Source: an uncultured Actinomycetota bacterium
GTDB taxonomy: Bacteria > Actinomycetota > Actinomycetes > Mycobacteriales > Mycobacteriaceae
Direction of reading: 5' to 3'
Assembly: GCA_963822305.1 (NCBI GenBank)
Contig: CAWGHF010000026.1
Span: 11,093-75,092, forward strand
Length of the DNA stretch: 64,000 nt
The position numbers and the translations under genes were made by a program. Under the pieces are notes generated by a model, which saw only the letters and a list, made by a program, of their open reading frames with translations, searched no databases and was not told the origin of the DNA. Of this stretch, positions 44,589 to 63,197 are shown piece by piece. The stretch's first letter is position 1; each line of letters begins with the position of its first letter.

Positions 44589-44857
44589 CGTCCGGCCTCC
44601 GCGGCTGTCAGGCGGGTGATCCAGATCACATTCAGAATATGCCTGGACAAGACCGCGCGTCCACCGTTCACCGGCGCCGAGACACCGTTGACAGGTGTCC
44701 CGGGACGCCGTTCTAAATGGGGGTCTGTTTTCGGGGAGTTTTCCGCATTTGACAGGACATCCCGACGTCGGCTCGCGATCTGGCAAAAGGCGGCTCCCGG
44801 TACCCGCAAATGGGGTTACTGTCGAGTAACAGCTCCGCCCACGTTGGGAGGTCCGCC

Positions 44858-46755
44858 ATGGCCGTCAGCGAACAAGTCAGCGAGCAACAGGCCAGGCAGG
44901 TCGCCGAACAGGCGCGAGAGACGCAGTGGCGCCAGCCGAGTTTCGGCAAGGAATTGTTCCTCGGCCGTTTGCGGTTGGACCTCGTTCATCCGCACCCCAG
45001 CGGGTCGGCGGAGGCTGCGAAGCGTGGCGAGGCGTTCCTGGACAAGCTGCGCGATTTCTGCGAGTCGCAGATCGATGCCGCTGTGATCGAACGCGACGCG
45101 CAGATTCCCGACAAGGTCGTCCGCGGCTTGAAGGAACTCGGCGCGTTCGGCATGAAGATTGCCACCGAGTACGGCGGGGTCGGGCTGTCACAGGTGTACT
45201 ACAACAAGGCGCTCGCACTCGTCGGCTCGGTGCATCCGTCATTGGGCGCGTTGCTTTCCGCGCACCAATCGATCGGCGTACCGCAGCCGATCACATATGT
45301 TCGGCACCGAGGAACAGAAGCGAACATGGCTGCCCCGGTGTACCCAGGAGATCAGCGCCTTCCTGCTCACCGAGCCGGACGTGGGCAGCGATCCAGCCCG
45401 GCTGCACGCCACCGCCACACCCTGATGGCGATGACTATGTGCTGAACGGTGTCAAGCTGTGGACCACCAACGGCGTGATCGCCGACCTGCTGGTGGTGAT
45501 GGCCCAGGTACCCAAGAGCGAGGGGCACCGGGGTGGGATCTCCGCATTCGTGGTGGAAGCGGACGCACCGGGCATCGTGGTGGAGAACCGCAACGCGTTC
45601 ATGGGGTTGCGCGGCATCGAAAACGGGCTCACCCGGTTGACCAACGTGCGGGTACCGGCCGCGAACCGGATCGGCCGGGAAGGCGACGGGCTGCGGATCG
45701 CACTGTCCACGCTGAACGTGGGGCGGTTGTCGCTGCCGGCGGTGTGTACCGGAGTCGATGAAATGGTGTTTGAAGATCGCCAGGGAGTGGTCTCGAGAGC
45801 GGGTGCAATGGGGCCGGCCGCTCGGCGAGCACGAAGCGGTGGCTGGAAAGGTCGCGTTCATCGCGGCCACCACCTACGGGCTGGAGGCGATGCTCGAGCT
45901 TGCCAGTGAGTTGGCCGACGCCGGCCAAACCGACATACGGATCGAGGCAGCGCTGGCCAAGCTCTACGGCTCGGAGATGGCCTGGCTGGTCGCCGACGAA
46001 CTGGTACAGATTCGCGGCGGACGCGGCTTTGAGACCGCCGAGTCGCTTGGCCGCCCGCGGCGAGCGAGGGGTGCCCGCCGAGCAGGTGCTGCGCGACTTG
46101 CGCATCAACCGGATCTTCGAAGGCTCCACCGAGATCATGCATCTGATGATCGCCCGCGAGGCGGTAGACGCGCATCTGTCGGTGGCCGGCGACATCATCG
46201 ACCCGCAGGCCGACACCCGGCGCAAGGTGAAGGCGGCCGCGAAGGCCGGCAAGTTCTATGCCCGCTGGCTGCCGACCTTGGTAACCGGCAAGGGCCAGCT
46301 TCCCACGTCGTTCACCGAGTTCGGACCGCTGGCGGGGCATCTGCGCTATGTCGAACGGGCCAGCCGCCGGCTTGGCGCGAAGCACCTTCTACGGGATGTC
46401 GCGGTGGCAGGGCAGGCTCGAGCACAAGCAGCGGTTCCTGGCGAGGATCGTGGATATCGGCGCGGAGCTGTTCGCGATGACCGCCGCCTGCGTCCGGGCA
46501 CAGCGTGACCGGGCGGACCATACCGCCGTCGAGCTCGCCGACGCGTTCTGCCGTCAGGCGCGGGTTCGGGCCGAGCAGCGGTTCGACCAGCTTTGGCATA
46601 ACTGCGACGACTCCGACGTCACGCTGGCTCGGGGCGTGTTGAGCGATCGCTACACCTGGCTCGAAGAGGGGATCCTCGACCCGTCGATCGAGGGGCCGTG
46701 GATCGCTCAGGAGGGCGGCGTCGACAAATCCGATGTGCACCGTTCCATACGCTGA
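44858..46755 (+). CDS. Long acyl-CoA dehydrogenase (FadE10-like); about 5 frameshifts
   Basis: [50 protein letters not shown] in successive frames. Confidence 0.82.
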
Positions 46756-47542: not shown

Positions 47543-47755
47543 TGTGATGTGTCAAGACATAGGAATAGCTCTGAACCTGCGTTTCGGGTTCAGGGCTTTT
47601 TCTTTGGGCGGCCGCAGGGCACGCCGCGGGGTTGATAGTCCCTGGTCGGGTCGATGGTTAGCTCGCGGATCAGTTCGCCGGTGGCGGCGTTGATGATCCG
47701 GACGTCGAAGTCTTGAACGAGCATCAAAACGTGGGCTTCTGGACGGTGGGTGAGC
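47543..47755 (-). mobile_element. IS481-family remnant
   Basis: TGTGATGTGTCAAGACATAGGAATAGCTCTG end and transposase C-terminus, homologous to 8878-9135. Confidence 0.8.
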
Positions 47756-48413
47756 CGGACTCGGCGCTATCCGGAGAAGATCTAGAGCCCTCCCCGATAT
47801 CACCCAGATAATCGCGCAGTGTCACGCGTCCGTCGGCCAGTTGGTAGGTGACACCGGCGATCGCCAACGTCCCCGCGTTCAGCCGCTCGGCGACCGCGGT
47901 TGATCGGCTGCGGAGCTGCGCGGCGGTCTCACTGACATGCCGGGCTTCGAACTCGTCGACGCGGGTCAGACCGTCGCGGCGGCCCAACAGAATGGACGGG
48001 ATCACCCGTTCCACAATGTCGCGCACATACCCGCCGGGCACCACGCCGTCGTCGAGCGCCGACAGGGTGGCCTTCACCGCGCCGCAGCTGTCGTGGCCCA
48101 GCACTACGATCAGCGGCACGTTGAGCACTGTGACGGCGTACTCGATCGAGCCCAGCACCGCCAAGCCCATGACATGCCCGGCGGTGCGCACCACGGTCAT
48201 GTCGCCCAGTCCCTGATCGAAGATGATCTCGGCCGCGACCCTACTGTCGGCGCAGCCGAACACCACGGCGTTGGGTGTCTGCGCGGCGGTTAGGCTGGCC
48301 CGGCACTCGATGCCCTGGCTGGGATGCTGCGGCCTGCCGGCGACGAATCGCTCGTTACCCTCCTTGAGTGCCTTCCACGCCTTCCAGGCCTTCGCCGGAT
48401 TCGAGTTAGGCAT
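47724..48413 (-). CDS. Beta-carbonic anhydrase (CanB/Rv3588c-like), read-through tail into the IS481 remnant
   Basis: LKEGNERF, GCADSRV, LGHDSCGAV zinc ligands. Confidence 0.9.
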   Translation of the reverse strand: MPNSNPAKAWKAWKALKEGNERFVAGRPQHPSQGIECRASLTAAQTPNAVVFGCADSRVAAEIIFDQGLGDMTVVRTAGHVMGLAVLGSIEYAVTVLNVPLIVVLGHDSCGAVKATLSALDDGVVPGGYVRDIVERVIPSILLGRRDGLTRVDEFEARHVSETAAQLRSRSTAVAERLNAGTLAIAGVTYQLADGRVTLRDYLGDIGEGSRSSPDSAESGSPTVQKPTF

Positions 48414-48519
48414 GGTGGACATTGTCCCCCGGCCGGGTGGCGAAGTGCGATGACGGTTGCGGCCGAACTGCTCGGCGGGTATGACATCGCGCGGCGCGAC
48501 CACCGCGGGCTCGTTGTCT

Positions 48520-48670
48520 CCCGCGACGGCACCGTCATTGGCATGCGTCCCGGCGACACCGTGTGGACGCCGCCCGGTGACGAGCGTTGGCATGCCGCCA
48601 CCGCCGACAACATGATGTGCCATCTCGCCATGCTCGAAGGCGTCCCCGGCGGGGATGGAACCGGAACCCG
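48520..48670 (+). pseudogene. Cupin-domain fragment
   Basis: MRPGDTVWTPPGDERWHAATADNMMCHLAMLEG (cupin motif 2); no N-terminus. Confidence 0.6.
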
Positions 48671-48914
48671 TCACCCCACCGTTAGAGGATCTGCACGTCG
48701 GCCCCGCTCCCGACTGACATGCAGATGGCCTGCATCCCGGAGCGGCCTCGGCGCACGACCGGATCATGCTCCTAGCTCCTGCCCTTCTGGCTCGATGACG
48801 AAGCAGAAGGGCGGCAGGGAAGTGCTGCAATGACGAGACGGCCGGCCATCCACCAACAGCCCACGTGAGGAATATCCAGCGCGCGGGGGCGTCGATCCTG
48901 AACGCCCAATGGAC

Positions 48915-51900
48915 TCAGTGACCGAGCGCATCCGCTGTTCGGGCCATCCCACGCTCCACAGCCGCGATGATGCGCGGGCGCAATTCGGCCGCCGGAATGA
49001 TCGAGTGGACCGAACCCACCCGGCGGGCACGCTCCACGTTGTGCACAGCTTCAAATTCCGCTGCCACCTCGCCGAGCTTGTCCGAACGTACGGCAGCCCG
49101 GGCGGCGGCGAGCTTGACCCGCAGGCTGGCGCTCGCCGAGTCGTCGGTGCAAGCGGCGAGCAACGCTTCGACCTCGCGCACGGCCGGGTCTGCTGCGGTA
49201 CGTGCATTCACGTCCCGGGTGAACACCACCGCTGCGGCGGGTGCACCGCCGATGACCGAGGAGAACGATCCCTCGACTGCAAGCACTTCCATGTTCTCGT
49301 TCAGCGCGTTGGAGAACACCACGAAAGCGCCGCCGTGATAGCGCGAGACCACGCAGAACACGATCGGTCCGTCGAAGTTGACGATGGCTCGGCCGATTTC
49401 GGCGCCGTTCTCGAGCTGGATGTTGCGGAGGGACTCAGGTGAACCGTCGAAGCCCGACAGGTTCGCCAGCACCACAAGGGGTCGGTTACCGCTTGCGGCG
49501 TTGATGGCGCGCGCGGTCTTCTTCGACGACTGCGGAAATAACGTCCCCGACGTCCATTGGTCCGGCCCGTCGGCCGGGACCCATCCCTTACGCGGCACGA
49601 CCCGCGATTCAATGCCGATGACGCACACCGGAATTCCGGCCATGTGCGCATCGAACACCACTGAGGTGTCGGCGTCGGCCATGTCGGCCCACCGCTCGAG
49701 CACCGGATGATCCTGGTCGACCACTGAGCGCATGACCGTCCGAATGTCGAACGGCTTCTTGCGGTCTTTGTTGGTGCTCGCCGAGAAGATGTCGCCGACA
49801 GTGGTGAATGTCGCTGGACGGATGTACGTGCGGGAAGGTGCGAACGTCGCGGTCCACCGGGTCGGAAGTGTCGGCGCGGCGCGGAAAGCGTTCTCCCGGT
49901 GCGACATAGGCGTGTTCGTAGTGTGCGAAGAGGATGTCGCACGCTATCTGCAGGTTCGGCGCCCAGTACTGAGCTTGACCGTTGCGTCCCATCACGCGGT
50001 CATAGCCGCCGATGCCGAAGTTGTCCTCCGCCGAGACCCCACCGGAGTAATCGAGGGACTGCTTGCCGGTGAGCACCATCGCGCTGTCGGGGGTCATGAC
50101 CAGAATGCCCTTGGTGTGCATCAGCATCGTCGCTTCGGCATTCCAGTACGGCTGCGCGCCGACGTTGATGCCCGCGACGATGACGTTGATCTCACCGCCA
50201 TTCTGGGTGAACGTGATGATCCGGCGAAGAGCGCGGGACACCCAGTCCATGTTCTCGGTTCCACTATCCATCGAAATGGTGGCCCCGGAGGATAACGCGA
50301 ACCACTCGACCGGTACCGACAGCTTTTCCGCTAAATCGATCGCCGCGACTACGCGAGCGCATTCCGCTTCGGCCACCGTGCCCAGCGCTTTCGTCGGGTC
50401 ACCGAACAGGGCGATACGCGTCATTCCCTCGGGGTAGCGAGTGGTCGGTAGTGACACTTGGCCGACGATGATGCCGGCCGTGTTGCGTCCGTACGGACGA
50501 TCCACGGGTACAAACGCGCCAGCCGCGTCGAAGTCGTATTCGACGAAGCTGCCCTTATCGCCGGTGAGAAGTGGGATCAGCTCATACGGGTAGACCGTGC
50601 TGCGGGCTTGTGAGCGCTGCACCTTCTGTGTGTACTCGTCGAGTGGGCGCAACGGCTCGGTCGGGGGCGCCGTCACATTCGCGACGATTCCGGCGCCCGC
50701 GCTGTATGCGAAGCGAATCGCCACGCGGCTGGGCTGCGACGTCCGCTCGTCGTTGATGCCTGCCAGGATCGTGATGTCTTCTATCCCGGCGTTGACCGTC
50801 AGCGGTGCTATCCGTCGCGCGATCGCCCGCAGTCGGTCTGCGGGGATGTCGAGCACCGGCCACACGTACAGCACGACCCGGTTGGCGTCGAGCCGCTTCT
50901 TGCCCCGCTCGGCCTGCGCACGGCGGATGCCGTCGAGACACGCGGCGAGGGTGCGCTCAATGGCCGGGACCGCGACCACCTCGCCGTCCTCGTTCAGTTG
51001 GGTTGTCACGTCGCGAACCTCGGCCAGCGCTACGAGGCGCTCATCGGACTGATTCTCTCTGGCCACCACGTGGAAGAGGTACGTCCCTGCGGCGGCGGGT
51101 AAGCGAGTGCCGTCGAAGTTCTTGAGCCGCCACAGATCGAGGCGTTGCCCGGTGAGCGGGTGCATGTCGCGGATCGTCAGGTCCTCCGCCACGCCCGCGC
51201 CGTCCGGACGGAACGTCACCTGATGCAGGTCGCGGCCGACGACTGTCACGGTCACGCGGCGCCACTCACTCACGCTGGGGTGCGCGGCAAGCACATCACG
51301 CAACCCGGCAGACAGTTCGTCGCCGTCGGTGGGAGCGTCCGGCCAGGACAGATAGATGTCGACAACGACGTTGTCAGCGTTGAGTCCGGCGATGGAGTCG
51401 ACCGCGCGCAGCGTTGTCGACAACCGCTCGCGGTCGGTCACAGTCGATACGAGATGTAGCCGCTTGCCTGCCAATTCGTAACTGCCGGTGACGAACTGGC
51501 CACCGTCCTGTTGGAAGGCCCTGATGTCTTCGAGCGCGCGGATCTCGTAGTACCGACGCGTGACCACCTCGAGCAGCGCGCCGGGACTGGAAATGCGCTC
51601 TGCCAGCAGGTCGATCAATAGCTCCGGCGTGGCGATAAGGGCGTCGATGCGTGCCGCGTAGTCCGGCGCGTCGGGATTGTCGGCCAGATATTGCAGGGCT
51701 TCGCGCACGCCGTCGTAGATATGCTCGCGTGCGTTGCGGATCGCCGGCTCGTCGAACAAGCGGAAGCGCAGGTTACGCGCGATGTCGCCGATCACCGGGT
51801 AACGCACCTGCGTCGCCACGATCAGCCGATCGAGGACGTCGCCCACTGCACTTGTCGAAGCGGATTCGACATCGTCGGCGTTGAGCCAGCGGCCCAGCAG

Positions 51901-54414
51901 CGCGCTGATCACCGGTACCTGGTTCTCCATACGCTGCAACGCGAGGAACAGTCGGTAGACCGCTTCTTCCAACTCCGGTCCGGGTTCGAGACTATCGACG
52001 TCGTAGTTGCGCAGCGCCTGGGCGATCTTGGTGCGAAACGCCTTCGGCAGCCCCTCCACATCGGCGTCGAGGGAATGCAGGAACGAATGGAAGTACTCGC
52101 GTGGGCTGTGGACGCTCTCATCGGAGCTCTCTTCGTCCAGCGTCGGACGGTTGCGGGAAAGCTCGCAGATGTCGGCGAAGGTGCCCAGCAGTTCGAGTTC
52201 GGCCTCGACGAGCTCTGTGTCGTCGCGCGGCAGGCGGCCACGAAGGGCGTCGTACTCCGCAAGCAGGATGCGCGCGCGGCCGGCGCTCACGTCGTAACCA
52301 GTGATCAGGGCACGCAGCTCGCCGAGCCGCGCCAACGCCTCCGCGCGCGGGTCCGCGTCCTCGTGCCTCGGTTGGCTACGGAACCGAACTCGCGGCGCGG
52401 CTTCAGCCGCCGTACTCTCGCCGAGAGGATCGAAGCGCAGCAGTGCAGCACCCGCATCGACCTGACCGTTGACGACGGCATACACCTCACGAACCCGTCC
52501 CGCGGACGGTGCGCGCACGGCGGTTTCCATCTTCATGGCTTCCAGCACCACCAGAGTGGCACCGACCTCGACCTCGTCGCCCACGGCCACCGGCAGAGCG
52601 ACGACCACGGCTGGAGACGAGGCGCGGACCAGACCGGCTTCGTCCTGGCTGATGCGGTGAGTTATGCCGTCCACCTCGACGAGGAATCCCGTGGGGCCCG
52701 CGACCGTGACGATGTGGAAGCGCCGGTCGCCAAGGATGAGGCGACTCTCGAACTCGCCAAGTCGGTCGACGTCGACGACCAATTCGCCGCTATCACCGTC
52801 GACTCGGTAGCTGCGCGGACCGATCTGTCCGACCGTGAGTTTGTATGCCTGGCCCTGGTAGCTGAGTTCAACGGTACGACCGATGGCGTGCGTGGCGCGC
52901 GGTCGACCACCGCGTGCCGAGGCCAGGAAACCGGCACGCTCGACACCCTCCTCGGCTTCGTACGCGTCGACCGCAGCCGCGATGAGCGCGATATCGGCCA
53001 TCGGGGTAGGGCCGGTCGCCGTCCCAGCGTCGGTGCGGTCAAGCCAGCCGGTGTCGGCCGAGGCGGACACGACCTCGTCACGGTCGAGGAGCTCGAGAAG
53101 GAACGACTTGTTCGTAGTCCCTCCGTCGATCACGACCGTGGTCTCACGCAGGGCAGCGCGCAGCCGTGCCAGTGCTTCGCTTCGGTCGCGGCCCCAGGCG
53201 ATGATCTTGGCGACCATCGAGTCGTAGTCGGGCGGGATGACGTCGCCTTGTGCGATGCCGGTGTCGACGCGGATGCCGGAGCCGAGTGGGAACTTCAGCA
53301 GCCGCACGGTCCCCGGCGCGGGTGCGAAGCCATTGTCGGTGTCTTCGGCGTTGAGCCGAGCCTCGACGGCGTGGCCGAACTCGGGGGGGCATTCGCCCGC
53401 GAGAACACCGCCGCTGGCCACGAATATCTGTAGCTTGACCAGGTCGATGCCGGTGGTGACCTCGGTGATCGGGTGCTCGACCTGCAGCCGGGTGTTGACC
53501 TCGAGGAATGTGAAGATCTTCTCCTCCGGCTGATACAGGTATTCGACGGTGCCCGCGCCGCGGTATCCGGCGGCGCGGACAAGTTCGGCCGACACACTGC
53601 GGAGATGGTCGGCCTGATCCTTGGTCAGGAGCGGGGAGCTGGACTCCTCAATCACCTTCTGGTTCCGGCGCTGTATGGAGCAGTCGCGCACCCCCGGCGC
53701 CCAGACATTGCCGTAGTTATCGGCGATGATCTGGACCTCGACGTGGCGGGCATCGGTGACAAGGCGCTCGAGGAACACCACCGGATCGCCAAACGAACGC
53801 TCGGCTTCGCCCTGCGTGCGCTCAAGTGCGACCTCGAGTTCGTCGGGGGCGAACACCTTGCGGATACCGCGGCCGCCGCCACCACTGCGGGCCTTAATGA
53901 TTAGCGGGTAGCCGATGGCCTCCGCGTGGCGTCGGGCGTCCTCGCGGGTCGCGACGGGGCCACCGCTCCACGGTGCGAGCGGAACGTGCACCTTCTCCGC
54001 CAGCAATTTGGCCTCGACCTTGTCGCCCAGAGCCGCCATCGCGGCGGGGGGCGGCCCGATGAACGTGAGTTCCATGCGCCCGCAGAGTTCGGCGAACGCG
54101 ATGTCTTCGGCGACGAAACCCCAGCCCACCCACACCGCGTCGGCCCTGGATTCCCGCAGAGCGCGTTCTAGCTCGGCGTGGTCGAGGTAGACGATGCCGC
54201 CCGAGGTACTGCAGAGCGTCACCGCCTCGTCAGCCTGGCGCACGAACATGGCCCGGCGCTCGGCGTCGGTATGCAGAGCAATGGTCTTTATGCCGCAGTC
54301 GTATTCGGCGTTCAATTCTCGAACGGCCCGAATCAGGCGTACCGCGGCCTCACCCCGGTTGACCACTGCAATTCGACTGGGAAACGTGACCGTCAACGGG
54401 TCGGCGTCCGACAT
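48915..54414 (-). CDS. Single-chain multidomain acyl-CoA carboxylase (BC-BCCP-central-CT, ~1830 aa); frameshift near 49811
   Basis: NRGEAA, GGGGRG, RDCSIQRRNQK, EVNTRLQVEHP (BC); EAMKM biotin Lys; ANLSGFDGS and SRYHGGAFVV (CT). Frames join at HPSSD/FTTVGDIF. Confidence 0.9.
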
Positions 54415-54727
54415 TCGCTCAGTGTATGGCGGGATGAAACCACTGAACGCACAGCTGAGCGGGTTTCCACTGAGCGGATTCGGGCACGCCCTATCTTCGC
54501 CGCCGGAGGCCAGGTATCAGAGGCGACAAGACAACTTGTTGTAGCGTTCAAAGCAGAATCAGGGCCCCTTATCGGACGCGGCTCATGTTTCGCAGAAGTC
54601 GTGGTCGGTCGGTGCACTCGGCCCGGTCGACCGGACATTCACCTGTCGCCGACTTCGCCACCGCAGACTGGTTCGCACAGGAGCCGGCGAGGAACTCGTT
54701 ACTTCGCGCCGAACCCCAGGAGGGCCC

Positions 54728-56452
54728 ATGACGTCATCAGATGTGCCAGCACGCTCGACTTCGCCTGCAGTGCAAGATCTGCTGGGGATCGCCGAGAATG
54801 TCACCTTCGCGGCCGATCCGGCCGGCCTGATGAGGGACCTCCTGGCCGCCGCCGGGATGACGCTGAGAAATCCGGCCGGAATTATCGCTGCCAATGCACG
54901 CCTGTTCTGGGGTTATCTGGGGGCCTACCGGGCTGCCGCCGAACGCGCGATCGGCCTTGACAATCCCGGTCCCATCGCGATCGACCGCGGCGACAAGCGC
55001 TTCGCCGATCCGGCCTATCGGGAGAATCCGGCGTACATTCTGCTGGCTCAGCAGTATTTGATGTTCAGCCGGTTTGTCGACGACCTGCTCGACGCCGCGG
55101 AAGTGAGGGGAACGAGAGAAGCGAAGGCCCGCTTCGCCGCCACGTTTCTTATCGGGGCGCTCGCCCCGACGAACACTCTGGCCGGTAACCCCGCGGCGGT
55201 CCGCAAGGCATTCGACACCGGCGGCAAGAGCATCGGCAGGGGTCTCAAGAACTGGGTGCACGATCTTCGCCGCAACGGTGGATGGCCGTCGCAAGTCGAC
55301 AGCTCCGGATTCGAGGTCGGCGTCAATATGGCCGCCACGCCGGGAAGCGTCGTCTACCGCAGCGACCTCATCGAGTTAATCCAGTACTCGCCACAGACTC
55401 CGAATACGCACGCGGCTCCGTTGCTCTTCTGCCCGCCCTGGATCAATAAGTTCTACATCATGGATCTGGCACCAGGGAAAAGTCTTATCGAGTGGGCCGT
55501 GCAACACGGACATACGTGTTTTGCGATCAGTTACCGCAATCCCGATAAGTCGATGAGCGGACTCGGATTCCGCGACTACCTCTTCCAAGGACCGCTGGAC
55601 GCCGTGGGAGTCGTGAAAGATATCACCGGTGCACCCGCGGTGAACACCGTATCGGTTTGCCTGGGTGGGACGCTCACCGCACTGGGTCTGGCCCTTAACG
55701 CGGCACGCGGTGACAACTCCATCAAATCGGCGACATTCCTCAACACCCATACCGATTTCACCCAGCCGGGCTTGCTCGGCACGTTCACCGACGAGGCGAC
55801 GGTCGTGGGACTTGAGAAGGAGATGGAGAAGACGGGCTTCCTGGACTCGGCGACCATGGCACGAACCTTCAGTGCGTTGCGGCCAAACGACCTGATCTTC
55901 CAATACCTGGTGAACAATTGGCTGCTCGGAAACAACCCACCGGCGTTCGACCTGCTGGCCTGGAACGAAGACTCGACCCGTATGCCGGCCCGGATGCATT
56001 CGGAGTATTTGCGCTCGTGCTATCTGCGCAACGAATTTGCCCGAGGTGAATTCGAAATCGACGGCGACCGTCTAGACCCGGGCCTTGTCGGCATCGACAG
56101 TTACGTGCTGTCGGCTGTGGGTGACCATGTGGTGCCGTGGACATCGGGCTATAAGACCACACAGCTGCTAGGTGGGGAGAGCAGGTTTGTTCTGAGTTCT
56201 TCCGGCCATATAGCCGGCATCGTCAATCCGCCCAATCCGAAGGCCAAGCATTGGGTGAACGACAGCCTTCCCGCCGACCCGTTGGAATGGAAGGCGGACG
56301 CACAATTAGTGGACGCCACCTGGTGGCAGGACTGGACTGCGTGGATCGCCGAACGGGGCGGGGAAATGATTCCCGCGCCCGATCGCCTGGGCAACGACGA
56401 CTATCCGCCGATTGAGAAAGCTCCCGGCCGTTACGTGCGGGCCACCGCATGA
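54728..56452 (+). CDS. phaC: Class I polyhydroxyalkanoate synthase
   Basis: PhaC_N region (PTN...NP), FEVGVNMAATPG, PPWINKFYIMDL, lipase box SVCLGG (Cys), GDHVVPW (Asp), SSGHIAG (His). Confidence 0.93.
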   Translation: MTSSDVPARSTSPAVQDLLGIAENVTFAADPAGLMRDLLAAAGMTLRNPAGIIAANARLFWGYLGAYRAAAERAIGLDNPGPIAIDRGDKRFADPAYRENPAYILLAQQYLMFSRFVDDLLDAAEVRGTREAKARFAATFLIGALAPTNTLAGNPAAVRKAFDTGGKSIGRGLKNWVHDLRRNGGWPSQVDSSGFEVGVNMAATPGSVVYRSDLIELIQYSPQTPNTHAAPLLFCPPWINKFYIMDLAPGKSLIEWAVQHGHTCFAISYRNPDKSMSGLGFRDYLFQGPLDAVGVVKDITGAPAVNTVSVCLGGTLTALGLALNAARGDNSIKSATFLNTHTDFTQPGLLGTFTDEATVVGLEKEMEKTGFLDSATMARTFSALRPNDLIFQYLVNNWLLGNNPPAFDLLAWNEDSTRMPARMHSEYLRSCYLRNEFARGEFEIDGDRLDPGLVGIDSYVLSAVGDHVVPWTSGYKTTQLLGGESRFVLSSSGHIAGIVNPPNPKAKHWVNDSLPADPLEWKADAQLVDATWWQDWTAWIAERGGEMIPAPDRLGNDDYPPIEKAPGRYVRATA

Positions 56453-56748
56453 GCCACTTGCCGCGCGGACCGTCGACTTGGGCACATTGATCATTGCTGT
56501 CATCCGGTCGTCGACGCGGCGCCCGGGCAGAACCGAGGTTGTTAGGTACCGGTTGGCCCGCTCGACGATCTGTTGTCCCACCACAGTTCCTCAACAAATG
56601 GCTGCGCCAGCACCACCGCCCGCGATGAACCGGGAACTCGCCTGCTGGCTGAATCCGACCGCATTCTGCCCAGCGGAAATAATCGATCGCACAGATTTCT
56701 GTCGGCGAGAATGACCTCATACATATTGTGCGTGGACAAGGGGTCAGC

Positions 56749-57591
56749 ATGACGGCGACGACTGCGGTTGAGGAGATCGGCGAGCCCCGGTCGGACGCGG
56801 CCCGGGGAGCCAAGCTCCGTGGGCGCGTTGCTTTCGTGACGGGTGGCACCCGTGGAATCGGTGCGGCGATCAGTAAGAGCCTGGTCGGTCAGGGTGCAAC
56901 GGTAGCCGCGGGATACGGCAGGAACACCGAACAGGCGCAGAAGTTCCTCGCTGAGTTGTCGGAGGGCAGTGACGGCGCCGAGGTCAGCGTCCATCAGGGC
57001 GATGTCGCGAGTGCGGGTGACTGTCGACGAACGATCCAGGAGGTCATCGACCTCCACGGCCGCCTGGACATCCTGATCAACAACGCCGGCATCACCATCG
57101 ACAAGACGGTGGCCAACATGTCCGAAGACGAATGGAACAAGGTCATCGGAGTCAACCTGTCCGGGGCGTTCTTTCTTGCCCAGGCCGCGTTGGCGCACAT
57201 GCTCGAGCGCGGCAGCGGCCGGATCGTCATGGTCTCCTCGGTGATCGGTGAGACGGGTGCCATCGGTCAGGCGAATTATGCGGCCTCCAAGGCCGGGCTG
57301 TTCGGCCTGACGAAGACACTCGCGCGCGAGGCGTGTTTCCAGATGGGGCGCACGGGCAAGCCGCAAGACGGTGTCGGCGTCACAATCAACGCAATCACAC
57401 CCGGGTTCGTGGCGACCGAGATGCTCGAGAGCATCCCCGACAAGGTCCTAGACCGCATCAAGGGCACCATCCCCATGGGCCGGCTGGCGCGGCCGTGGGA
57501 GGTCGCTCGAGTCGTGCACTTCTTGGCCGCGGACGCCTCGGGGTACATCACTGGACAGGTTTGGGGGGTCAACGGCGGTCTGGACATGTGA
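56749..57591 (+). CDS. phaB: Acetoacetyl-CoA / 3-oxoacyl reductase (SDR)
   Basis: TGGTRGIG, NNAGIT, GQANYAASK, PGFVATEM, NGGLDM; adjacent to phaC. Confidence 0.8.
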   Translation: MTATTAVEEIGEPRSDAARGAKLRGRVAFVTGGTRGIGAAISKSLVGQGATVAAGYGRNTEQAQKFLAELSEGSDGAEVSVHQGDVASAGDCRRTIQEVIDLHGRLDILINNAGITIDKTVANMSEDEWNKVIGVNLSGAFFLAQAALAHMLERGSGRIVMVSSVIGETGAIGQANYAASKAGLFGLTKTLAREACFQMGRTGKPQDGVGVTINAITPGFVATEMLESIPDKVLDRIKGTIPMGRLARPWEVARVVHFLAADASGYITGQVWGVNGGLDM

Positions 57592-57667
57592 TGGTCGGTG
57601 ACGGCCCGCCTCCATCGCCAAGCGCTATATCAACCTCGCAAGCGTCTCATCGAAAAGGTGATCGGCA

Positions 57668-59618
57668 ATGCACGCCTTTGAACTCAATAAGCATAATAAG
57701 ATCGTCTTTCCGTCCAATTGCTTTCCGGATCTCGATTTCTCCACTCTCGAAAGTCTCGAGCAGCTTGATGCCGTCGTCCGGCGGGACTTCGATTCCAAGG
57801 CGCCAACCGGGACCGACATCCTTGAGCAGATAAAGACCGGCGCCTACCAAACCAAGTTCGAGTTGATGCGAGATATGGCGCTCAACCTGTTCTGGGCCAA
57901 TCGTTTCAAGATAACGATGTACGACGTGCAGCCAACCCGCTGGGCCGACGTGCCTCGTCGCCGCGACGACCTCTTCGTGCCCATCCTAACGCCGTGGGAA
58001 GATCGCGAAACGAAGGTGTCCGCGGTGATGTCGGCGTATCCGAATCTGCCGGAGCAGTGGGATGCCGAGGTCGAGGACAGCATCTTCGAGGTCCTCTTCG
58101 ACGTGTTCGGACATCGCCGAAACCACGCGACCAAACTGTCGCCTGTCGTACCCACGGTTGCCGATCTGCTGACCAACCCCGGTAATCAAACGCTGCGACT
58201 GAATCGCTACGACCCTGACTTCCGCCGGTACAGCTACGCCGAGATCATCGACTGCAACGAGGATGTGGCCGAGCTGGAAGCGCTACGCCGCTGGTCGATG
58301 GTGTTGCACAACCAGTATCCGTGGGATCGCGGCGAGGCCGCCCTGACCCCTGTCGGGGAATTGCGCGACGACGACTATGTGGTGGTGTTTTGTCCGCGTG
58401 ATCGAGAGGTCCAGCTTTTCCTGTCCCGCGTCGCCTCGGGGCACGCTCCGAAGAAGGTCCGCGTCGGTCGTCCCCGAGGTTCACGCGCCCGTTCGCCCGT
58501 ACCCTGCCATCGACGTACGCAACGACTTGGCAGTACAACCGCGTATCGAGGCCATGGCCGCGGCGCAAGGTGATCAGGTGTGCACCAACGAGGACCTCAT
58601 CCGCAACAGCGCCTACAACTGGTCCCCCATGTCTGCCGACGAGATCAGTGCCAAGACCGGCATCGAGCAGCGGCGTTACACCTCGGGCAGCCTCGAGGAT
58701 CTCGCGTTGCGGGCCGCCCGGTCGGCGCTCGCTCACGCCCAGGTGGGTCCAGAGCAGATCGGGGCGGTCATCGTGTGCACCTGCACCAGCTCTCGGCTGA
58801 TACCGTCGATCGCCACCTGGATTTCCGGCGCGTTGGGCATCGGGCAGACGCACTGCTCGTTTGACCTCGTCGCCGCGTGCGCGGGCCTCAGCTATGGGCT
58901 CGCCGAGGCGACGAGAATTCTCCAACTGGTCCGGCGCCCAGTCCTTCTCGTGTGCGCGGAAAAGTTCTCCGACAAGATCGGGAACGTCCGGCCATCGCGG
59001 ATGATTTTCGGGGACGGCGCGTCCGCCATTGTCCTGGGCGTCGCACCCGAGGGTTCGCCGCCGGACATCGAGTACATGCAGACGTATGCCAGCGGTCCGA
59101 CAAGTCAGGTCAATTCGATCCTGTGGCCCAACCCCGCGTTCGGCAACAACATCACGGTCTTCGGTCCTGAGGTGAAGGCGCTCGCCGGGCGCTATCTGCG
59201 GCAGATGCTGGATGACCTCAGGGCCCTGCCCGACCCGGATGGAGTCGCTGAGTCACTGCTGGCCAGCATCGAATTAATTGTCCCGCATCAGGCGAACAAG
59301 ACCATGGTGATCGATCTGGCGACCGGCGCCGGTCTGTCCCCAGATCAGCTGTATTTCAACATCGAACGGATGGGGAACGCCTCCGCGGCGAGCATTCCGC
59401 TGGCAATCAACGACGCGGTCCGCGACGGAGTGATCACCAAGCCGATGCGAATTTTCGCCCCGGGTTTCGGTGCCGGCGCGGTTGCTGGCTACGCGGTGCT
59501 GCGAATCGATCCTGCCGTTATAGCGCCTGACGACCAGGCGACATCCACTGGCGAGTCGGCCGCAGTCCCTGAGTCGGTCACAACAACTGCCGGGGTCGAT
59601 ATGGCCCTTGCGCTGTGA
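57668..59618 (+). CDS. KAS III (FabH/NphT7-like) with ~270-aa unrecognised N-terminal domain; frameshift near 58460
   Basis: KTGIEQRR, DLVAACAG (Cys), FGDGA, PHQAN (His), GNASAASIP (Asn), GFGAG. Confidence 0.85.
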
Positions 59619-59861
59619 TAGCCGCCGCTCTTCGGCTGGCGGGATGGTTCGACCCCTAAGGGTTGGACCACGCGCGTGTCCTCGACCTCTTGACAACCAC
59701 TCCGCTAGAACATGTCGACACGGGCGGCCGGTAGGTCTGACCGGGATGACGGCGCCCGTCGTCAACTAACTCGACACATCGACGTCAACCGGCCGCCTGA
59801 GACCGGGGCGCCGAACACGTCAACACCAGCCAAGTTTTATTTCCCGACTTGAGGAGCCTCA

Positions 59862-59900
59862 ATGACCCAGGCATGGTTCATCACCGGCACTTCCGGCGGG
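59862..59900 (+). pseudogene. SDR N-terminal stub (MTQAWFITGTSGG)
   Basis: GAGGAG RBS plus a classic SDR start that stops abruptly before the patatin ATG. Confidence 0.5.
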
Positions 59901-59908
59901 ACGGCGCG

Positions 59909-60958
59909 ATGACCGGCCGCGCTCGACGCCATCCGGGCCAGACCCGCGGCCTCGTCGGGCCGCGCGCCGAAAAGACGGTGTCGCTGGCCCTGCAGGGCGG
60001 CGGGGCCCACGGCGCCTTCACGTGGGGCGTGCTCGACGCCCTCCTCGAAGACGGGCGCCTCGCCGTCGAAGCGATCACCGGGGCGAGCGCCGGCGCCATG
60101 AACGCCGTCGTGATGGTGGAGGGCTGGCTCGACGGCGGGATCGACGGCGCGCGCAGCTCACTCGAAACCTTCTGGCGCCGGGCCAGCCTCGACGGGTCCC
60201 TTTCCCCCACCCAGCGCGCGCTTCTCGGCCTGATGCTGGGCTTCTGGAGCAAGGCCTGGACGGACGTCATCGCCCCAAGCTTCAGTCCCTACCGGACGAA
60301 CCCGCTCAACATCAATCCGTTGCGAGACGCGATCGACGCGCTCATCGACTTCGATCGCGTGCGCGCCTGCACGGATGTCGAGCTCTTCCTCAGCGCGACC
60401 AATGTCTGGACCGGCAAGGTTGCGATCTTCAAGACACAGGAACTCACGGCCGATCACCTCATGGCCTCCGGCTGCCTGCCCACGGTCTTTCAGGCGGTGG
60501 AAATCGACGGCGTGCCCTATTGGGACGGCGGCTATATGGCCAATCCGGCACTGTTCCCGCTCTTCGACGAGACGATGACCGACGACATCCTGCTCGTGCA
60601 GATCAACCCGCTGGAGCGCCGGCAGACGCCGCGCACGGTGCACGAAATCCACAACCGGCTGAACGAGATCAGCTTCAACAGCACTCTCGTGCGCGAATTG
60701 CGGGCCGTGGCGTTTGTCACCCAGCTGATCGAAGAGGGAAGACTCTCGCCCGACGAATACAAGCACGTCCACTTGCACCGGATCGACGCGAGCGGCGTGC
60801 TCGACGATCACGAGGCCTCTTCGAAGCGCAACGCGGAATGGGATTACTTCGTCCAGCTTCGCGATGCCGGGCGGCGGACCGCTCAATCCTGGCTCGCGGC
60901 CCACTACGAGGCGATCGGGGTGCACGGCACACTCGATCTGCAGGACGCTCGGTTGTGA
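59909..60958 (+). CDS. Patatin-like hydrolase (candidate PHA depolymerase)
   Basis: LQGGGAHG oxyanion motif, GASAG Ser, WDGGY Asp. Confidence 0.9.
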   Translation: MTGRARRHPGQTRGLVGPRAEKTVSLALQGGGAHGAFTWGVLDALLEDGRLAVEAITGASAGAMNAVVMVEGWLDGGIDGARSSLETFWRRASLDGSLSPTQRALLGLMLGFWSKAWTDVIAPSFSPYRTNPLNINPLRDAIDALIDFDRVRACTDVELFLSATNVWTGKVAIFKTQELTADHLMASGCLPTVFQAVEIDGVPYWDGGYMANPALFPLFDETMTDDILLVQINPLERRQTPRTVHEIHNRLNEISFNSTLVRELRAVAFVTQLIEEGRLSPDEYKHVHLHRIDASGVLDDHEASSKRNAEWDYFVQLRDAGRRTAQSWLAAHYEAIGVHGTLDLQDARL

Positions 60959-61317: not shown

Positions 61318-63193
61318 GTGTCCGTCCAGATCTCCGCCGACCCTGCCGATATAGAGCAACGCCTTTCGCGGTGGCGTTCGGCCGTTGCCGGGGTGCTGGC
61401 CAAGAGCACCCGGCGTGACCCGTCAGAATTGCCCGCCGAGCCCGAGCGCCTGCTGGATTCGCCCACCTACGAAGGCTTTCCGGTACGCCCGCTGTACACC
61501 AGCTTGGACACGCTGGCCGAGCCGCCGCTGCCCGGCAGTGGCCCTTCGTGCGGGGCGGCGACGCGCTGCGCGACGTCAAGTCGGGATGGAAGGTGGCCGA
61601 AGGGCTTTCCCGCCAATGGGTCCGCCGCAGTCGGCGAGGACAACGGCGCGGTGCTGGTCGCGCTGACCGAAGGCGTGAGCGCGCTGGTGCTGCGGGTCGG
61701 CGAGCCCGGCGGTGTCGCTGCCGGCCGACCTGGACCGGCTGCTCGAGGGCGTCTTCCTCGACCTGGTGCCGGTGGTACTGGACGCGGGCACCGATTACGT
61801 TGCCGCCGCCGACGCGGTGCTGGCGCTGCTGACCGAGCTTGGACGACGACCAGCGCGTCGCGGCTGTCGGTCGACCTGGGCGCCGACCCGTTGACCGCGC
61901 CGCTGGGCGCGCGGTCCGCGCCGGAGCGTGGCCGACGTCGTCGCGACCGCGGCGAAAGTGGGCGGCTACGACGGACGGCGTGCGCGCGATCACCGTTGAC
62001 GGCCCGGCGTTCCACAACCACGGTGCGAGCGCGTCGTGGGAGCTGGCCGGCAGCGTGGCAGCCGGGGTGGCCTACCTGCGGCTGCTCAGCGGCGGCGGCC
62101 TTGGTGTTCGGGATGGGTTGCGGCAGATCAGCTTTCGATTCGCCGCGGACGACGACCAGTTCATGACCATTGCGAAGCTGCGTGCGGCACGCCAACTTTG
62201 GGCGCGGGTTGCCGAGGTTGTCGGGGAACCCGACAGCGGCGCGCGCGACCGTGCATGCGCGTCACGTCGTTGCCGATGATGGCCGAGCGCGACCCGTGGG
62301 TGAACATGCTGCGCACTACGCTGGCGGCTTTCGGGGCGGGTGTCGGTGGTGCTGATACCGTGCTCGTCCAGCCTTTCGACGTCGCGATCCCCGGCGGATT
62401 CCCGGGGATCGCGGCCCGCTTCTCGCGGCGGATCGCCCGTAACACCCAGCTGTTGCTGCTGGAGGAATCCCATGTCGGGCGGGTGCTCGATCCCGCGGCC
62501 GGGTCGTGGTTCGTCGACGACCTCACCGAGCGGCTCGCCGAGCAGGCGTGGACGCATTTCCGGGAGATCGAGCAGCGGGGCGGCTTCGTCGAGGCCGGGG
62601 AGTTCGTCGCCGAGCAGATCGCCGAGGTGCGCGACCGCCGGATCGACGACATCGCGCACCGGGGCACGGCGCTGACCGGTGTCAACGAATACCCAAACCT
62701 GGCCGAACCGCCGCTACCCCCGAACGACCTGAAAGCGACTGTCGAGAGTTACGCGGCCGGGTTTGAAGCGCTGCGGGACCGCTCGGATGCCTACCTCGAG
62801 CGGACCGGGTCGCGCCCGCAGGTGCTGCTGCTGCCGCTGGGTCCGCTGGCCGAGCACAACATCCGCGCGACGTTCGCGGCGAACCTGCTGGCCTCAGGCG
62901 GTATCGAGGCGGCCAGCCCGGGAACCGTGACCGCCGACGGTGTCGCGCAGGCGATTTCGGTCGCTGACTCTCCGAGCGTCGCGGTCATCTGCGGTACCGA
63001 TGCCCGCTACGGGACCGAGGCGGCCGGCGTGGTCGAGGCGGCCCGCGCCGCCGGGCTGTCGCGGGTCTATCTGGCCGGCCCGGAGAAGGCGGTGGCGGAT
63101 GTCGACCAGGGCGGCCGCCCCGACGACTACCTGACCGCTAAGATCGACGCGGTCAGCGCCCTGTCGACTCTGCTCACCCGATTGGGGGCATAG
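61318..63193 (+). CDS. mutA: Methylmalonyl-CoA mutase small subunit; several frameshifts
   Basis: WRSAVAGVLAK...PTYEG..VRPLY, FMTIAKLRAARQLW, DPWVNMLR, RRIARNTQLLLLEES, LTGVNEYPN. Confidence 0.88.
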
Positions 63194-63197
63194 ACCG

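What the first reader, a model, noticed from the sequence alone, without database searches (positions are those of the whole stretch)
47724..60958. Thiolase-free PHA cluster: carbonic anhydrase + single-chain carboxylase + KAS III + PhaB + PhaC + patatin
Seen: phaC-phaB-KASIII-patatin run in one direction, divergent from a giant BC-BCCP-CT carboxylase, with a beta-carbonic anhydrase downstream of it. No phaA thiolase, phasin or phaR is recognisable in the window. Established: NphT7-type KAS III enzymes (Cys-His-Asn triad, intact here) condense acetyl-CoA with malonyl-CoA irreversibly to acetoacetyl-CoA; PhaB/PhaC make PHB; some patatins are PHB depolymerases. Inference: a natural bicarbonate -> malonyl-CoA -> acetoacetyl-CoA -> (R)-3HB-CoA -> PHB route with its own depolymerase, in a genus not known as a typical PHA producer. 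I know this route from engineered strains, not as a described natural locus.
Basis: partly seen in the sequence, partly recalled or inferred. Interest (0 to 1): 0.88.

Follow-up and report, generated by a model that had tools for sequence, protein, structure and literature searches.

The report
Carboxylase–KAS III–reductase module feeding PHA synthase
A soil Mycobacterium carries a conserved but undescribed gene set that probably makes bioplastic (PHA) building blocks from malonyl-CoA, using an ATP-driven condensing enzyme with an orphan-fold domain in place of the usual thiolase. Two of its genes are frameshifted in this assembly.

Summary
Three corrections apply.

- **Carboxylase:** it is split by a 1-nt insertion at 49812.
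- **KAS III:** it is the C-terminal half of a ~650-aa protein. The N-terminal 260 aa form a confidently predicted fold with no Pfam or PDB match. The gene is split by a 1-nt insertion at 58464.
- **Peripheral genes:** carbonic anhydrase and patatin are lineage-specific neighbours, not conserved parts.

The conserved core is the eukaryote-type multidomain ACC, a PhaB-like reductase and the N-domain–KAS III fusion, usually with PhaC. It recurs in Mycobacterium, Geodermatophilaceae, Rhodococcus aetherivorans, Marmoricola and Acidimicrobiaceae. In 48 loci with full flanks, the reductase is present in 44, the carboxylase in 40 and PhaC in 31.

A lower-GC (~56% G+C), unidentified lineage fuses N-domain, KAS III and reductase into one 881-aa chain. 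That gene lies beside a class III-like PhaC and a PhaR.

Best reading (confidence about 0.55): a decarboxylative, thiolase-independent supply of (R)-3-hydroxyacyl-CoA for PHA. NphT7 membership is not shown, since identity is ~30%, the same as to FabH. The genome has at least 11 thiolases, and 31% of sampled species in the genus encode PhaC. I found no published description.

The parts
47727..48422 (-). Beta-class carbonic anhydrase, 232 aa. A species-specific neighbour, probably not part of the conserved module.
   Evidence: Pfam Pro_CA E=1.4e-35. CxDxR and HxxC zinc motifs are present. GC3 is 0.83. It is called as 232 aa in same-species assemblies L082 and L083. It is absent near the module in the 80 related loci.
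48423..48914 (.). Spacer between the carboxylase stop and the CA start. No coding signal; weak cupin remnant on the + strand.
   Evidence: GC3 is 0.67-0.68 in both candidate frames. Cupin_2 matches partially at E=0.013; the minus-strand frame has no Pfam hit.
48915..49811 (-). Carboxylase, C-terminal half of the carboxyltransferase domain. The ORF as listed runs 48915-49907.
   Evidence: Carboxyl_trans model positions 252-474. The nearest solved relatives are the CT domains of yeast and fungal ACC. It is in frame with the upstream part in L082 (P0126, 1832 aa) and in isolates.
49812..49812 (-). One extra base that frameshifts the carboxylase, in the linker between the N and C halves of the CT domain.
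   Evidence: Alignments to L001 and L003 and a three-way alignment. The base is present in the window and L083 and absent in L082.
49813..54414 (-). Carboxylase: biotin carboxylase, BCCP, ACC central region and the N half of CT. The ORF as listed runs 49609-54414.
   Evidence: Pfam Biotin_carb_N, CPSase_L_D2, Biotin_carb_C, Biotin_lipoyl, ACC_central and Carboxyl_trans 56-253. PDB hits are to BC domains and to eukaryotic ACC.
54415..54727 (.). Divergent intergenic region between the carboxylase and phaC.
   Evidence: ORF map. No Rfam family and no convincing promoter or terminator consensus.
54728..56452 (+). PHA synthase PhaC, class I-like, 574 aa, with a variant lipase box S-V-C-L-G-G.
   Evidence: PhaC_N E=1.2e-57 plus Abhydrolase_1. 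TIGR01838 scores 582.6 bits against a cut-off of 622.65. Cys, Asp (GDHVVPW) and His (SGHIAG) are present. SVCLGG is conserved in linked PhaCs of several taxa.
56728..57591 (+). PhaB/FabG-like NAD(P)H ketoreductase (SDR). The likely start is ATG 56749, giving 280 aa.
   Evidence: adh_short E=1.4e-54. The best NCBIfam is acetoacetyl-CoA reductase TIGR01829 at 265.3 bits, below the 302.1 cut-off, and FabG TIGR01830 scores almost the same. TGGTRGIG and YAASK motifs are present. Present in 44 of 48 full-flank loci.
57668..58463 (+). Orphan N-terminal domain (~260 aa) of the two-domain KAS III. The ORF as listed runs 57668-58573.
   Evidence: No Pfam or NCBIfam hit. Fused in frame to KAS III in 71 of 80 loci. 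AF2 pLDDT 90.5, pTM 0.87. No PDB fold match: best E=1.9, TM<0.27. No PDB sequence match.
58464..58464 (+). One extra base (T) that frameshifts the linker between the N-domain and KAS III.
   Evidence: Alignments to L002 and L003, L083 and a three-way alignment. The base is present in the window and L084 and absent in L083 (P0122 reads through in frame).
58465..59618 (+). KAS III (FabH-like) condensing domain. The ORF as listed runs 58377-59618.
   Evidence: ACP_syn_III plus ACP_syn_III_C. NF006829 scores 183.8 bits, below the 249 cut-off. Cys (AACAG), His (PHQAN) and Asn (GNASAAS) are conserved. The fold matches FabH structures with TMt 0.77-0.89.
59849..60958 (+). Patatin-like serine hydrolase. 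The likely start is 59909, giving 349 aa. A lineage-specific neighbour and candidate polymer or lipid esterase.
   Evidence: Patatin E=1.1e-23. GGGAHG, GASAG and DGG motifs are present. Homologs lie near PhaC in L011, L014, L017 and L031 only.

Best explanation
The conserved core of this locus is a three-enzyme, ACP-independent module that supplies PHA monomers without a thiolase.

1. The eukaryote-type multidomain carboxylase makes malonyl-CoA from acetyl-CoA, ATP and bicarbonate. It may also make methylmalonyl-CoA from propionyl-CoA.
2. The two-domain KAS III condenses a short acyl-CoA primer with malonyl-CoA. The condensation is decarboxylative and irreversible, and gives acetoacetyl-CoA or 3-ketovaleryl-CoA.
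3. The PhaB-like SDR reduces the product to (R)-3-hydroxyacyl-CoA.
4. The adjacent class I-like PhaC polymerises it.

The ~260-aa orphan N-domain is an integral part of the condensing enzyme. It probably docks it to a partner (carboxylase, PhaC or granule) or regulates it.

The route costs one ATP per monomer. In return it removes the dependence on a high acetyl-CoA/CoA ratio that the thiolase route has.

What is shown: the domain content, intact catalytic motifs, the conserved gene linkage and the fusion evidence. What is inferred: the substrates, ACP independence, the product and the role of the N-domain.

Patatin (a possible depolymerase or esterase) and carbonic anhydrase (a possible bicarbonate supply) are optional, lineage-specific additions. 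In this assembly the carboxylase and the KAS III gene each carry a 1-nt insertion in an inter-domain linker. I put the odds at about even that these are long-read consensus errors versus real segregating alleles.
For: Gene linkage:
- At least 585 loci in the species-level genome collection encode the N-domain.
- In 71 of the best 80 loci it is fused in frame to KAS III, giving a ~650-aa protein.
- Among 48 loci with at least 8 kb on both sides, the SDR is present in 44, the carboxylase in 40, PhaC in 31 and all three in 24.
- These loci span Mycobacterium, Millisia, Geodermatophilus, Blastococcus, Modestobacter, Rhodococcus aetherivorans, Marmoricola and Acidimicrobiaceae, with varied gene orders.

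Fusion evidence:
- P0139 (881 aa) joins N-domain, KAS III and SDR in one chain. It is identical on three independent contigs.
- It lies beside a 355-aa class III-like PhaC and a PhaR. No thiolase is within 10 kb.

Genome-level link: in the genus, 8 of 9 genomes with the fusion have PhaC, against 85 of 292 without it (Fisher p=4.5e-4).

Enzyme features:
- The carboxylase has the order BC-BCCP-ACC_central-CT. Its CT is nearest to eukaryotic ACC CT domains.
- The characterised member of that architecture, SACE_4237, carboxylates acetyl- and propionyl-CoA only (PMC6491548).
- The KAS III triad is intact and the domain is distinct from the genome's other FabH-like gene, at 27% identity.
- No ACP-sized ORF fits in the gaps of the cluster.
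- The SDR's best family is acetoacetyl-CoA reductase.
- PhaC has its Cys-Asp-His residues.
Against: - There is no biochemical or expression evidence.
- The KAS domain is as far from a recalled NphT7 sequence (30%) as from E. coli FabH (32%). Malonyl-CoA versus malonyl-ACP use cannot be read from sequence.
- The SDR and PhaC fall below NCBIfam trusted cut-offs, and the SDR scores almost equally as FabG.
- PhaC lies within 10 kb in only 65% of full-flank loci. The carboxylase is missing from 17% of them and from the triple-fusion locus.
- The genome has at least 11 strong thiolases that could supply acetoacetyl-CoA.
- In this window the carboxylase and the KAS III are frameshifted.
- CA and patatin are not conserved neighbours.
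Confidence: 0.55

Rival explanations
1. The logic is the same but the monomer differs. The KAS III prefers propionyl-CoA or longer primers, or uses methylmalonyl-CoA as extender. The module would then make 3-hydroxyvalerate or 2-methyl-branched 3-hydroxyacyl-CoA for copolymers rather than plain 3HB.
For: The characterised SACE_4237-type carboxylase uses acetyl- and propionyl-CoA with similar efficiency. Rhodococcus aetherivorans carries the module (L052). From my own knowledge, the Rhodococcus ruber and Nocardia group makes 3HV-rich PHA from unrelated carbon sources. In this window methylmalonyl-CoA mutase genes follow the patatin gene. The position equivalent to E. coli FabH Phe87 is Ile, which is not the residue that restricts FabH to small primers.
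Against: The mutase genes are neighbours only in this species. Nothing in the sequence sets primer or extender specificity. The linked synthases are class I or class III-like short-chain types, which accept 3HB as well.
Confidence: 0.2
2. The carboxylase, KAS III and reductase module makes a 3-hydroxyacyl or 3-ketoacyl thioester for a product other than PHA. Candidates are a lipid, a polyketide starter or a signalling molecule. PhaC would then be a frequent but non-obligate neighbour.
For: PhaC is absent within 10 kb in 17 of 48 full-flank loci. Several MAGs carry a second module copy with no PhaC next to it (SDR, fusion, carboxylase in one direction, e.g. L004, L012, L021). An earlier scan note found one family member beside a PKS-NRPS.
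Against: Linkage to PhaC recurs with two different synthase classes and with PhaR. At genome level, 8 of 9 carriers in the genus have PhaC. No thioesterase, ACP or PKS is conserved in the neighbourhood. The next most conserved neighbour is a ~280-aa alpha/beta hydrolase, of the kind annotated as a putative PHA depolymerase beside Rhodococcus phaC genes.
Confidence: 0.12
3. In this particular genome the locus is decaying. The two 1-nt insertions are real and the carboxylase and KAS III are pseudogenes, or at best split genes. PHA, if made at all, would depend on thiolases and the second PhaC.
For: Each insertion is shared with another same-species assembly from a different sample: 49812 with L083 and 58464 with L084. 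In the 9.3-kb three-way alignment the window has only one private indel, so it is not a noisy assembly locally. rpoC and about 18 thiolase genes are intact. A second PhaC at 47% identity and many thiolases exist.
Against: Each site is in frame in at least one other same-species assembly: the L082 carboxylase is 1832 aa and the L083 linker is intact. These assemblies are long-read type with many private indels; PhaC alone has six deleted bases at five places in L082. The window also breaks mutB at 63327, where L083 is intact. Both insertions fall in inter-domain linkers, with an in-frame ATG about 30 codons upstream of each. Split but working proteins are therefore conceivable. All catalytic motifs are intact.
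Confidence: 0.4
4. The KAS III is an ordinary ACP-dependent FabH paralog that starts fatty-acid synthesis. The locus makes PHA by the standard thiolase route with genes located elsewhere.
For: The best NCBIfam and PDB matches are FabH enzymes. The genome has many thiolases.
Against: The score is below the FabH family cut-off (183.8 against 249). A separate FabH-like gene exists in the genome. The obligatory 260-aa extra domain, the fusion to a ketoreductase and the tight linkage to a dedicated carboxylase and PhaC are not features of housekeeping FabH. E. coli FabH Arg249 is replaced (HQANKT). From my own knowledge that residue is part of the ACP docking site.
Confidence: 0.08

Closest known systems
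NphT7 acetoacetyl-CoA synthase (Streptomyces sp. CL190, EC 2.3.1.194)
   Same: It is a KAS III-fold enzyme with a Cys-His-Asn triad. The proposed chemistry is the same: acetyl-CoA plus malonyl-CoA gives acetoacetyl-CoA plus CO2, with no ACP. It has been used in engineered PHB strains to replace PhaA (reviews found).
   Different: Identity to a recalled NphT7 sequence is only ~30%, no closer than to E. coli FabH. NphT7 is a single-domain protein of ~330 aa found in mevalonate-pathway clusters. This family has an obligatory 260-aa orphan N-domain and sits with a carboxylase, a reductase and PhaC. The activity is untested.
FabH / KAS III (e.g. E. coli FabH 1hn9, Vibrio cholerae FabH2 4wzu)
   Same: It is the best sequence and fold match. 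The Pfam domains ACP_syn_III and ACP_syn_III_C are present and the catalytic triad is conserved.
   Different: The score is below the NCBIfam cut-off. It has an extra N-terminal domain and no ACP or FAS-II context. Arg249 is not conserved. The genome has a separate FabH-like gene.
SACE_4237, the actinobacterial homodimeric multidomain acetyl/propionyl-CoA carboxylase of Saccharopolyspora erythraea (PMC6491548)
   Same: The architecture is the same, BC-BCCP-central region-CT, in a chain of ~200 kDa. The CT is related to eukaryotic ACC CT domains.
   Different: SACE_4237 is the essential housekeeping ACC for fatty-acid synthesis. Here the genome also has ordinary two-subunit carboxylases, and this enzyme is tied to a KAS III/reductase/PhaC module. 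Direct orthology to SACE_4237 was not tested because its sequence was not at hand.
Canonical PhaA-PhaB-PhaC pathway (Cupriavidus necator type)
   Same: It has the same last two steps: NADPH ketoreduction to (R)-3-hydroxyacyl-CoA and polymerisation by PhaC.
   Different: There is no thiolase in the cluster. Its place is taken by a carboxylase plus a decarboxylative condensing enzyme. PhaC has SVCLGG in place of GxCxGG. No Phasin_2 or PhaR match is found in this genome.
Patatin-like PHA depolymerase PhaZh1 of Haloferax mediterranei
   Same: It is a patatin-fold serine hydrolase encoded next to PHA genes (papers found; motifs).
   Different: No orthology was tested. The patatin accompanies the module in only a few mycobacterial loci. 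Elsewhere a ~280-aa alpha/beta hydrolase takes that place.

Membership tests
KAS III / FabH-like condensing enzymes (thiolase superfamily) | ACP_syn_III and ACP_syn_III_C domains and a FabH fold | tested here: met
   Pfam hits. Foldseek gives TMt 0.77-0.89 to FabH structures.
KAS III / FabH-like condensing enzymes (thiolase superfamily) | Cys-His-Asn catalytic triad | tested here: met
   AACAG, PHQAN and GNASAAS align with the E. coli FabH Cys112, His244 and Asn274 motifs.
Housekeeping FabH (NCBIfam NF006829 / TIGR00747) | Score above the curated cut-off | tested here: not met
   183.8 bits against 249; 157.2 against 292.1.
NphT7-type acetoacetyl-CoA synthase | Uses malonyl-CoA, not malonyl-ACP, and yields acetoacetyl-CoA | not testable with these tools
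   This needs an enzyme assay. Only context argues for it: no ACP gene in the cluster and a dedicated carboxylase next door.
NphT7-type acetoacetyl-CoA synthase | Closer in sequence to NphT7 than to FabH | tested here: not met
   29.9% identity to NphT7 (sequence recalled from memory, so a weak test) against 31.6% to E. coli FabH.
Actinobacterial multidomain ACC (SACE_4237 type, 'group V') | A single chain of ~200 kDa in the order BC-BCCP-central region-CT | tested here: met
   Pfam order in the window's two pieces and in the intact 1832-aa same-species copy.
Actinobacterial multidomain ACC (SACE_4237 type, 'group V') | CT domain related to eukaryotic ACC CT | tested here: met
   The best PDB matches for both CT halves are yeast, fungal and human ACC CT domains.
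Actinobacterial multidomain ACC (SACE_4237 type, 'group V') | Acetyl-/propionyl-CoA carboxylase activity as a homodimer | not testable with these tools
   Known only for SACE_4237 (PMC6491548).
[quoted passage not shown] | CT at the N-terminus and BC-BCCP at the C-terminus, with no central region | tested here: not met
   The domain order is the reverse and an ACC_central domain is present. The LCC layout is as described in PMC6491548. No LCC chain is among the PDB matches to the CT parts.
Class I PHA synthase (PhaC) | PhaC_N plus an alpha/beta-hydrolase domain with catalytic Cys, Asp and His | tested here: met
   Pfam hits. Cys in SVCLGG, Asp in GDHVVPW and His in SGHIAG.
Class I PHA synthase (PhaC) | Canonical lipase box G-X-C-X-G and a score above the TIGR01838 cut-off | tested here: not met
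   The box is S-V-C-L-G. The score is 582.6 bits against 622.65.
PhaB acetoacetyl-CoA reductase | SDR with a TGxxxGxG cofactor motif and a Ser-Tyr-Lys centre | tested here: met
   TGGTRGIG and YAASK are present. adh_short E=1.4e-54.
PhaB acetoacetyl-CoA reductase | Score above the TIGR01829 / NF042966 cut-off | tested here: not met
   265.3 bits against 302.1; 168.7 against 436. FabG TIGR01830 scores 257.8 against 297.75.
Patatin-like hydrolase | Patatin domain with a Gly-rich oxyanion motif, GxSxG and DG(A/G) | tested here: met
   Pfam E=1.1e-23. GGGAHG, GASAG and DGG are present. Depolymerase activity is not testable here.
Beta-carbonic anhydrase | Pro_CA domain with CxDxR and HxxC zinc ligands | tested here: met
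   Pfam hits. CADSR and HDSC are present.

The most novel reading that the evidence does not exclude
This would be a natural, widespread, thiolase-independent PHA pathway. A dedicated eukaryote-type ACC, a two-domain ACP-independent KAS III and a ketoreductase would form a self-contained 'mini-FAS' that drives (R)-3-hydroxyacyl-CoA formation irreversibly at the cost of ATP. The orphan-fold N-domain would be a new docking, channelling or regulatory module, for example coupling the condensing enzyme to the carboxylase or to the PHA granule.
Probability: 0.5. Interest if true: 0.8.

Novelty: new variant of a known kind. Interest (0 to 1): 0.7.

Why it matters
PHA synthesis from acetyl-CoA is taught as starting with a thiolase. 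That condensation is thermodynamically uphill and needs a high acetyl-CoA/CoA ratio. Engineers bypass it with NphT7 and extra malonyl-CoA.

A natural module doing the same job would matter in several ways:
- It would show that bacteria evolved this solution themselves.
- It could explain how slow-growing soil and desert actinobacteria store carbon at low acetyl-CoA levels.
- It would give ready-made, co-evolved parts for bioplastic engineering.
- It would assign a physiological role to non-essential copies of the eukaryote-type bacterial ACC.

The 260-aa N-domain is confidently predicted, has no counterpart in the PDB, and has no known function.

Tried and rejected
- **Raw-read check of the frameshifts:** No reads or RNA evidence could be obtained.
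- **LCC identity for the carboxylase:** rejected. The domain order is wrong, an ACC_central domain is present, and no LCC chain appears among the PDB hits.
- **Function of the N-domain:** Pfam, NCBIfam, a PDB profile search and Foldseek against the PDB gave nothing.
- **CT–N-domain 'fusion' P0168:** rejected as an artefact of an indel-ridden long-read contig.
- **CA as a conserved part:** rejected. It is in 0 of 80 loci, and a non-coding spacer separates it from the carboxylase.
- **The 136-codon N-terminal extension of the CA ORF:** rejected as non-coding.
- **Neighbourhood of the second PhaC (C20):** it holds unrelated genes.
- **Rfam and promoter/terminator scans of the locus:** nothing found.
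- **Literature searches for a described natural locus:** only engineered NphT7 routes turned up. One search was badly phrased and useless.
- **Phylum-wide co-occurrence table:** abandoned because only 2 of 401 sampled genomes carry the domain.

Full report
**What is in the window.** The window is C26:11093-75092 of a 6.35-Mb, 32-contig genome. The genome is about 65% G+C, 90% complete and 4% contaminated. Relatives name it as an environmental Mycobacterium.

- On the minus strand: a beta-carbonic anhydrase and a BC-BCCP-ACC_central-CT carboxylase.
- Divergently on the plus strand: PhaC, a PhaB/FabG-like SDR, a KAS III and a patatin.

Catalytic motifs are intact in all of them. No thiolase lies on the contig. 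No Phasin_2 or PhaR match exists in the genome.

**Corrections to the observation.**

*The carboxylase.* It is two overlapping ORFs, 1601 aa and 330 aa. Carboxyl_trans model positions 56-253 lie in the first and 252-474 in the second. Alignment with relatives places one extra base at 49812, in the linker between the two halves of the CT domain.

*The KAS III.* A 301-aa ORF with no Pfam hit lies between the SDR and the KAS III. Its homologs are the N-terminal ~260 aa of ~650-aa proteins that continue into KAS III. Here one extra T at 58464, in the inter-domain linker, separates the two parts.

*The carbonic anhydrase.* It is most likely 232 aa (47727-48422). The remaining 136 codons of its ORF have no coding signal and overlie a cupin remnant.

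In favour of assembly error:
- Each site is in frame in one of them. The L082 carboxylase is 1832 aa, and the L083 linker is intact.
- Those assemblies carry many private indels.
- The window itself breaks mutB at 63327, where L083 is intact.

In favour of real alleles:
- The 49812 insertion is shared by the window and L083.
- The 58464 insertion is shared by the window and L084.
- In a 9.3-kb three-way alignment the window has only one private indel.
- rpoC and about 18 thiolase genes are intact.

Shared insertions therefore mean either systematic long-read consensus errors or real alleles segregating in the population. I cannot decide, and put it near even. Both insertions fall in linkers and leave every domain whole.

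**What the locus is.** The N-domain occurs in at least 585 loci of the species-level genome collection. By tblastn of the window's proteins against the best 80 loci:
- The fusion is intact in 71 of the 80.
- Of the 48 loci with at least 8 kb on both sides, the SDR is present in 44, the carboxylase in 40, PhaC in 31 and all three in 24.
- Patatin appears in 4 and carbonic anhydrase in none.

Gene order differs between Mycobacterium, Geodermatophilaceae, Rhodococcus aetherivorans, Marmoricola and Acidimicrobiaceae, yet the association persists.

Clustering all neighbouring ORFs adds a ~280-aa alpha/beta hydrolase in 24 loci. This is the type annotated as a putative PHA depolymerase next to Rhodococcus phaC genes (PMC2667194). 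It also adds a 99-aa Ala-rich protein with a sub-threshold Phasin_2 hint in six loci.

A profile search of 1.84 billion representative proteins found only 405 clusters. Most are fragments, and the full-length ones are 620-680 aa. One of them, P0139 (881 aa), is N-domain plus KAS III plus SDR in a single chain. It is identical on three independent contigs of about 56% G+C. It lies beside a second SDR, a 355-aa class III-like PhaC, weak PhaE- and phasin-like ORFs and a PhaR.

Within the genus, the fusion is in 9 of 301 sampled species genomes and PhaC in 93. Of the fusion carriers, 8 of 9 have PhaC, against 85 of 292 non-carriers (p=4.5e-4). Across the phylum it is rare, at 2 of 401.

**The parts.**

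*Carboxylase.* It is not an LCC, because the domain order is reversed and a central region is present. It matches the 'actinobacterial homodimeric multidomain ACC' architecture. The one characterised member of that architecture, SACE_4237, carboxylates acetyl- and propionyl-CoA only (PMC6491548). This genome also has ordinary carboxylase alpha subunits, so this enzyme looks dedicated to the module.

*KAS domain.* It folds like FabH. It falls below the FabH family cut-off and is 27% identical to the genome's other FabH-like gene. It is about equally distant from E. coli FabH (32%) and from a recalled NphT7 sequence (30%). It forms a clade of its own, not a demonstrated NphT7 ortholog.

*N-domain.* It is predicted with pLDDT 90.5 and pTM 0.87. 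It has no PDB sequence match and no fold match (best Foldseek E=1.9).

*PhaC.* It has Cys, Asp and His, but its lipase box reads SVCLGG. That variant is conserved in linked PhaCs of distant taxa.

**Mechanism.** The most economical reading has four steps.
1. The carboxylase makes malonyl-CoA.
2. The KAS III condenses it decarboxylatively with acetyl-CoA, or with propionyl-CoA.
3. The SDR reduces the 3-ketoacyl-CoA.
4. PhaC polymerises the product.

The domain content, motifs, linkage and fusion are shown. The substrates, ACP independence and the N-domain's role are inferred.

The CO2 taken up by the carboxylase is lost again on condensation. The route is therefore ATP-driven, not carbon-fixing. 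The genome's many thiolases mean the module is an alternative supply, not the only possible one.

**Novelty.** Searches of the held literature found NphT7 only as an engineered bypass. They found no description of this natural locus or of the two-domain KAS III. Earlier notes of this scan reached the same reading for relatives in other genomes. I treated those as leads and re-derived the linkage independently.

I rate this a new variant of a known kind of pathway, built around an enzyme with an orphan-fold domain. It remains unproven until an enzyme assay is done.

Noticed in passing
window 61318-64000: Methylmalonyl-CoA mutase small and large subunit genes follow the patatin gene. Compared with same-species assembly L083 they change frame several times in the window. 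For example, mutB breaks at 63327 because of an extra base at 63328.
   Followed up: partly
window 44517-46508: An acyl-CoA dehydrogenase gene appears as three overlapping ORFs in different frames. The same gene is also in three pieces (188, 176, 282 aa) in same-species assembly L082.
   Followed up: no
window 55640-55660 (PhaC residues ~305-311); L019, L024, L027, L035, L076, L078, L079: The module-linked PhaC has S-V-C-L-G-G instead of the canonical G-X-C-X-G-G lipase box. The variant is conserved in Mycobacterium, Marmoricola and Acidimicrobiaceae copies. Geodermatophilaceae copies and this genome's second PhaC keep the canonical box.
   Followed up: partly
L014:14666-15511, L039:11987-12844 and 22 other loci: A ~280-aa alpha/beta hydrolase (GHSMGG) lies between the KAS III fusion and PhaC in 24 of 71 loci. 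It takes the place the patatin has in the window, and is probably the 'PhaZ/ORF4' type hydrolase of Rhodococcus.
   Followed up: partly
L019:14974-15273 and five other mycobacterial loci: A 99-aa Ala-rich protein lies next to PhaC, with a sub-threshold Phasin_2 match (E=0.036). It is a possible actinobacterial phasin and has no homolog in this genome.
   Followed up: partly
L085:10001-12646 (also L086, L087): An 881-aa triple fusion of N-domain, KAS III and SDR in a ~56% G+C lineage. It lies beside a class III-like PhaC and a PhaR, with no carboxylase within 10 kb.
   Followed up: partly
L007/L009, L013/L021, L015/L018, L020/L071, L022/L029: Several Mycobacterium MAGs carry two copies of the module. 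One has PhaC nearby. The other runs SDR, fusion, carboxylase in one direction with no PhaC.
   Followed up: no
L003, L024, L025, L026 (upstream of the SDR): Alcohol dehydrogenase, aldehyde dehydrogenase and acetyl-CoA synthetase genes flank the module in Mycolicibacterium hodleri-type loci. This hints at an ethanol or acetate to acetyl-CoA feed.
   Followed up: no
genome C20:223296-225047: A second PhaC, 47% identical and with a canonical GLCLGG box, sits among unrelated genes. In L031 the equivalent paralog lies next to a patatin homolog.
   Followed up: partly
window 48324-48833 (+): A weak, partial Cupin_2 match with no coding bias. It is probably a gene remnant between the carbonic anhydrase and the carboxylase.
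   Followed up: yes
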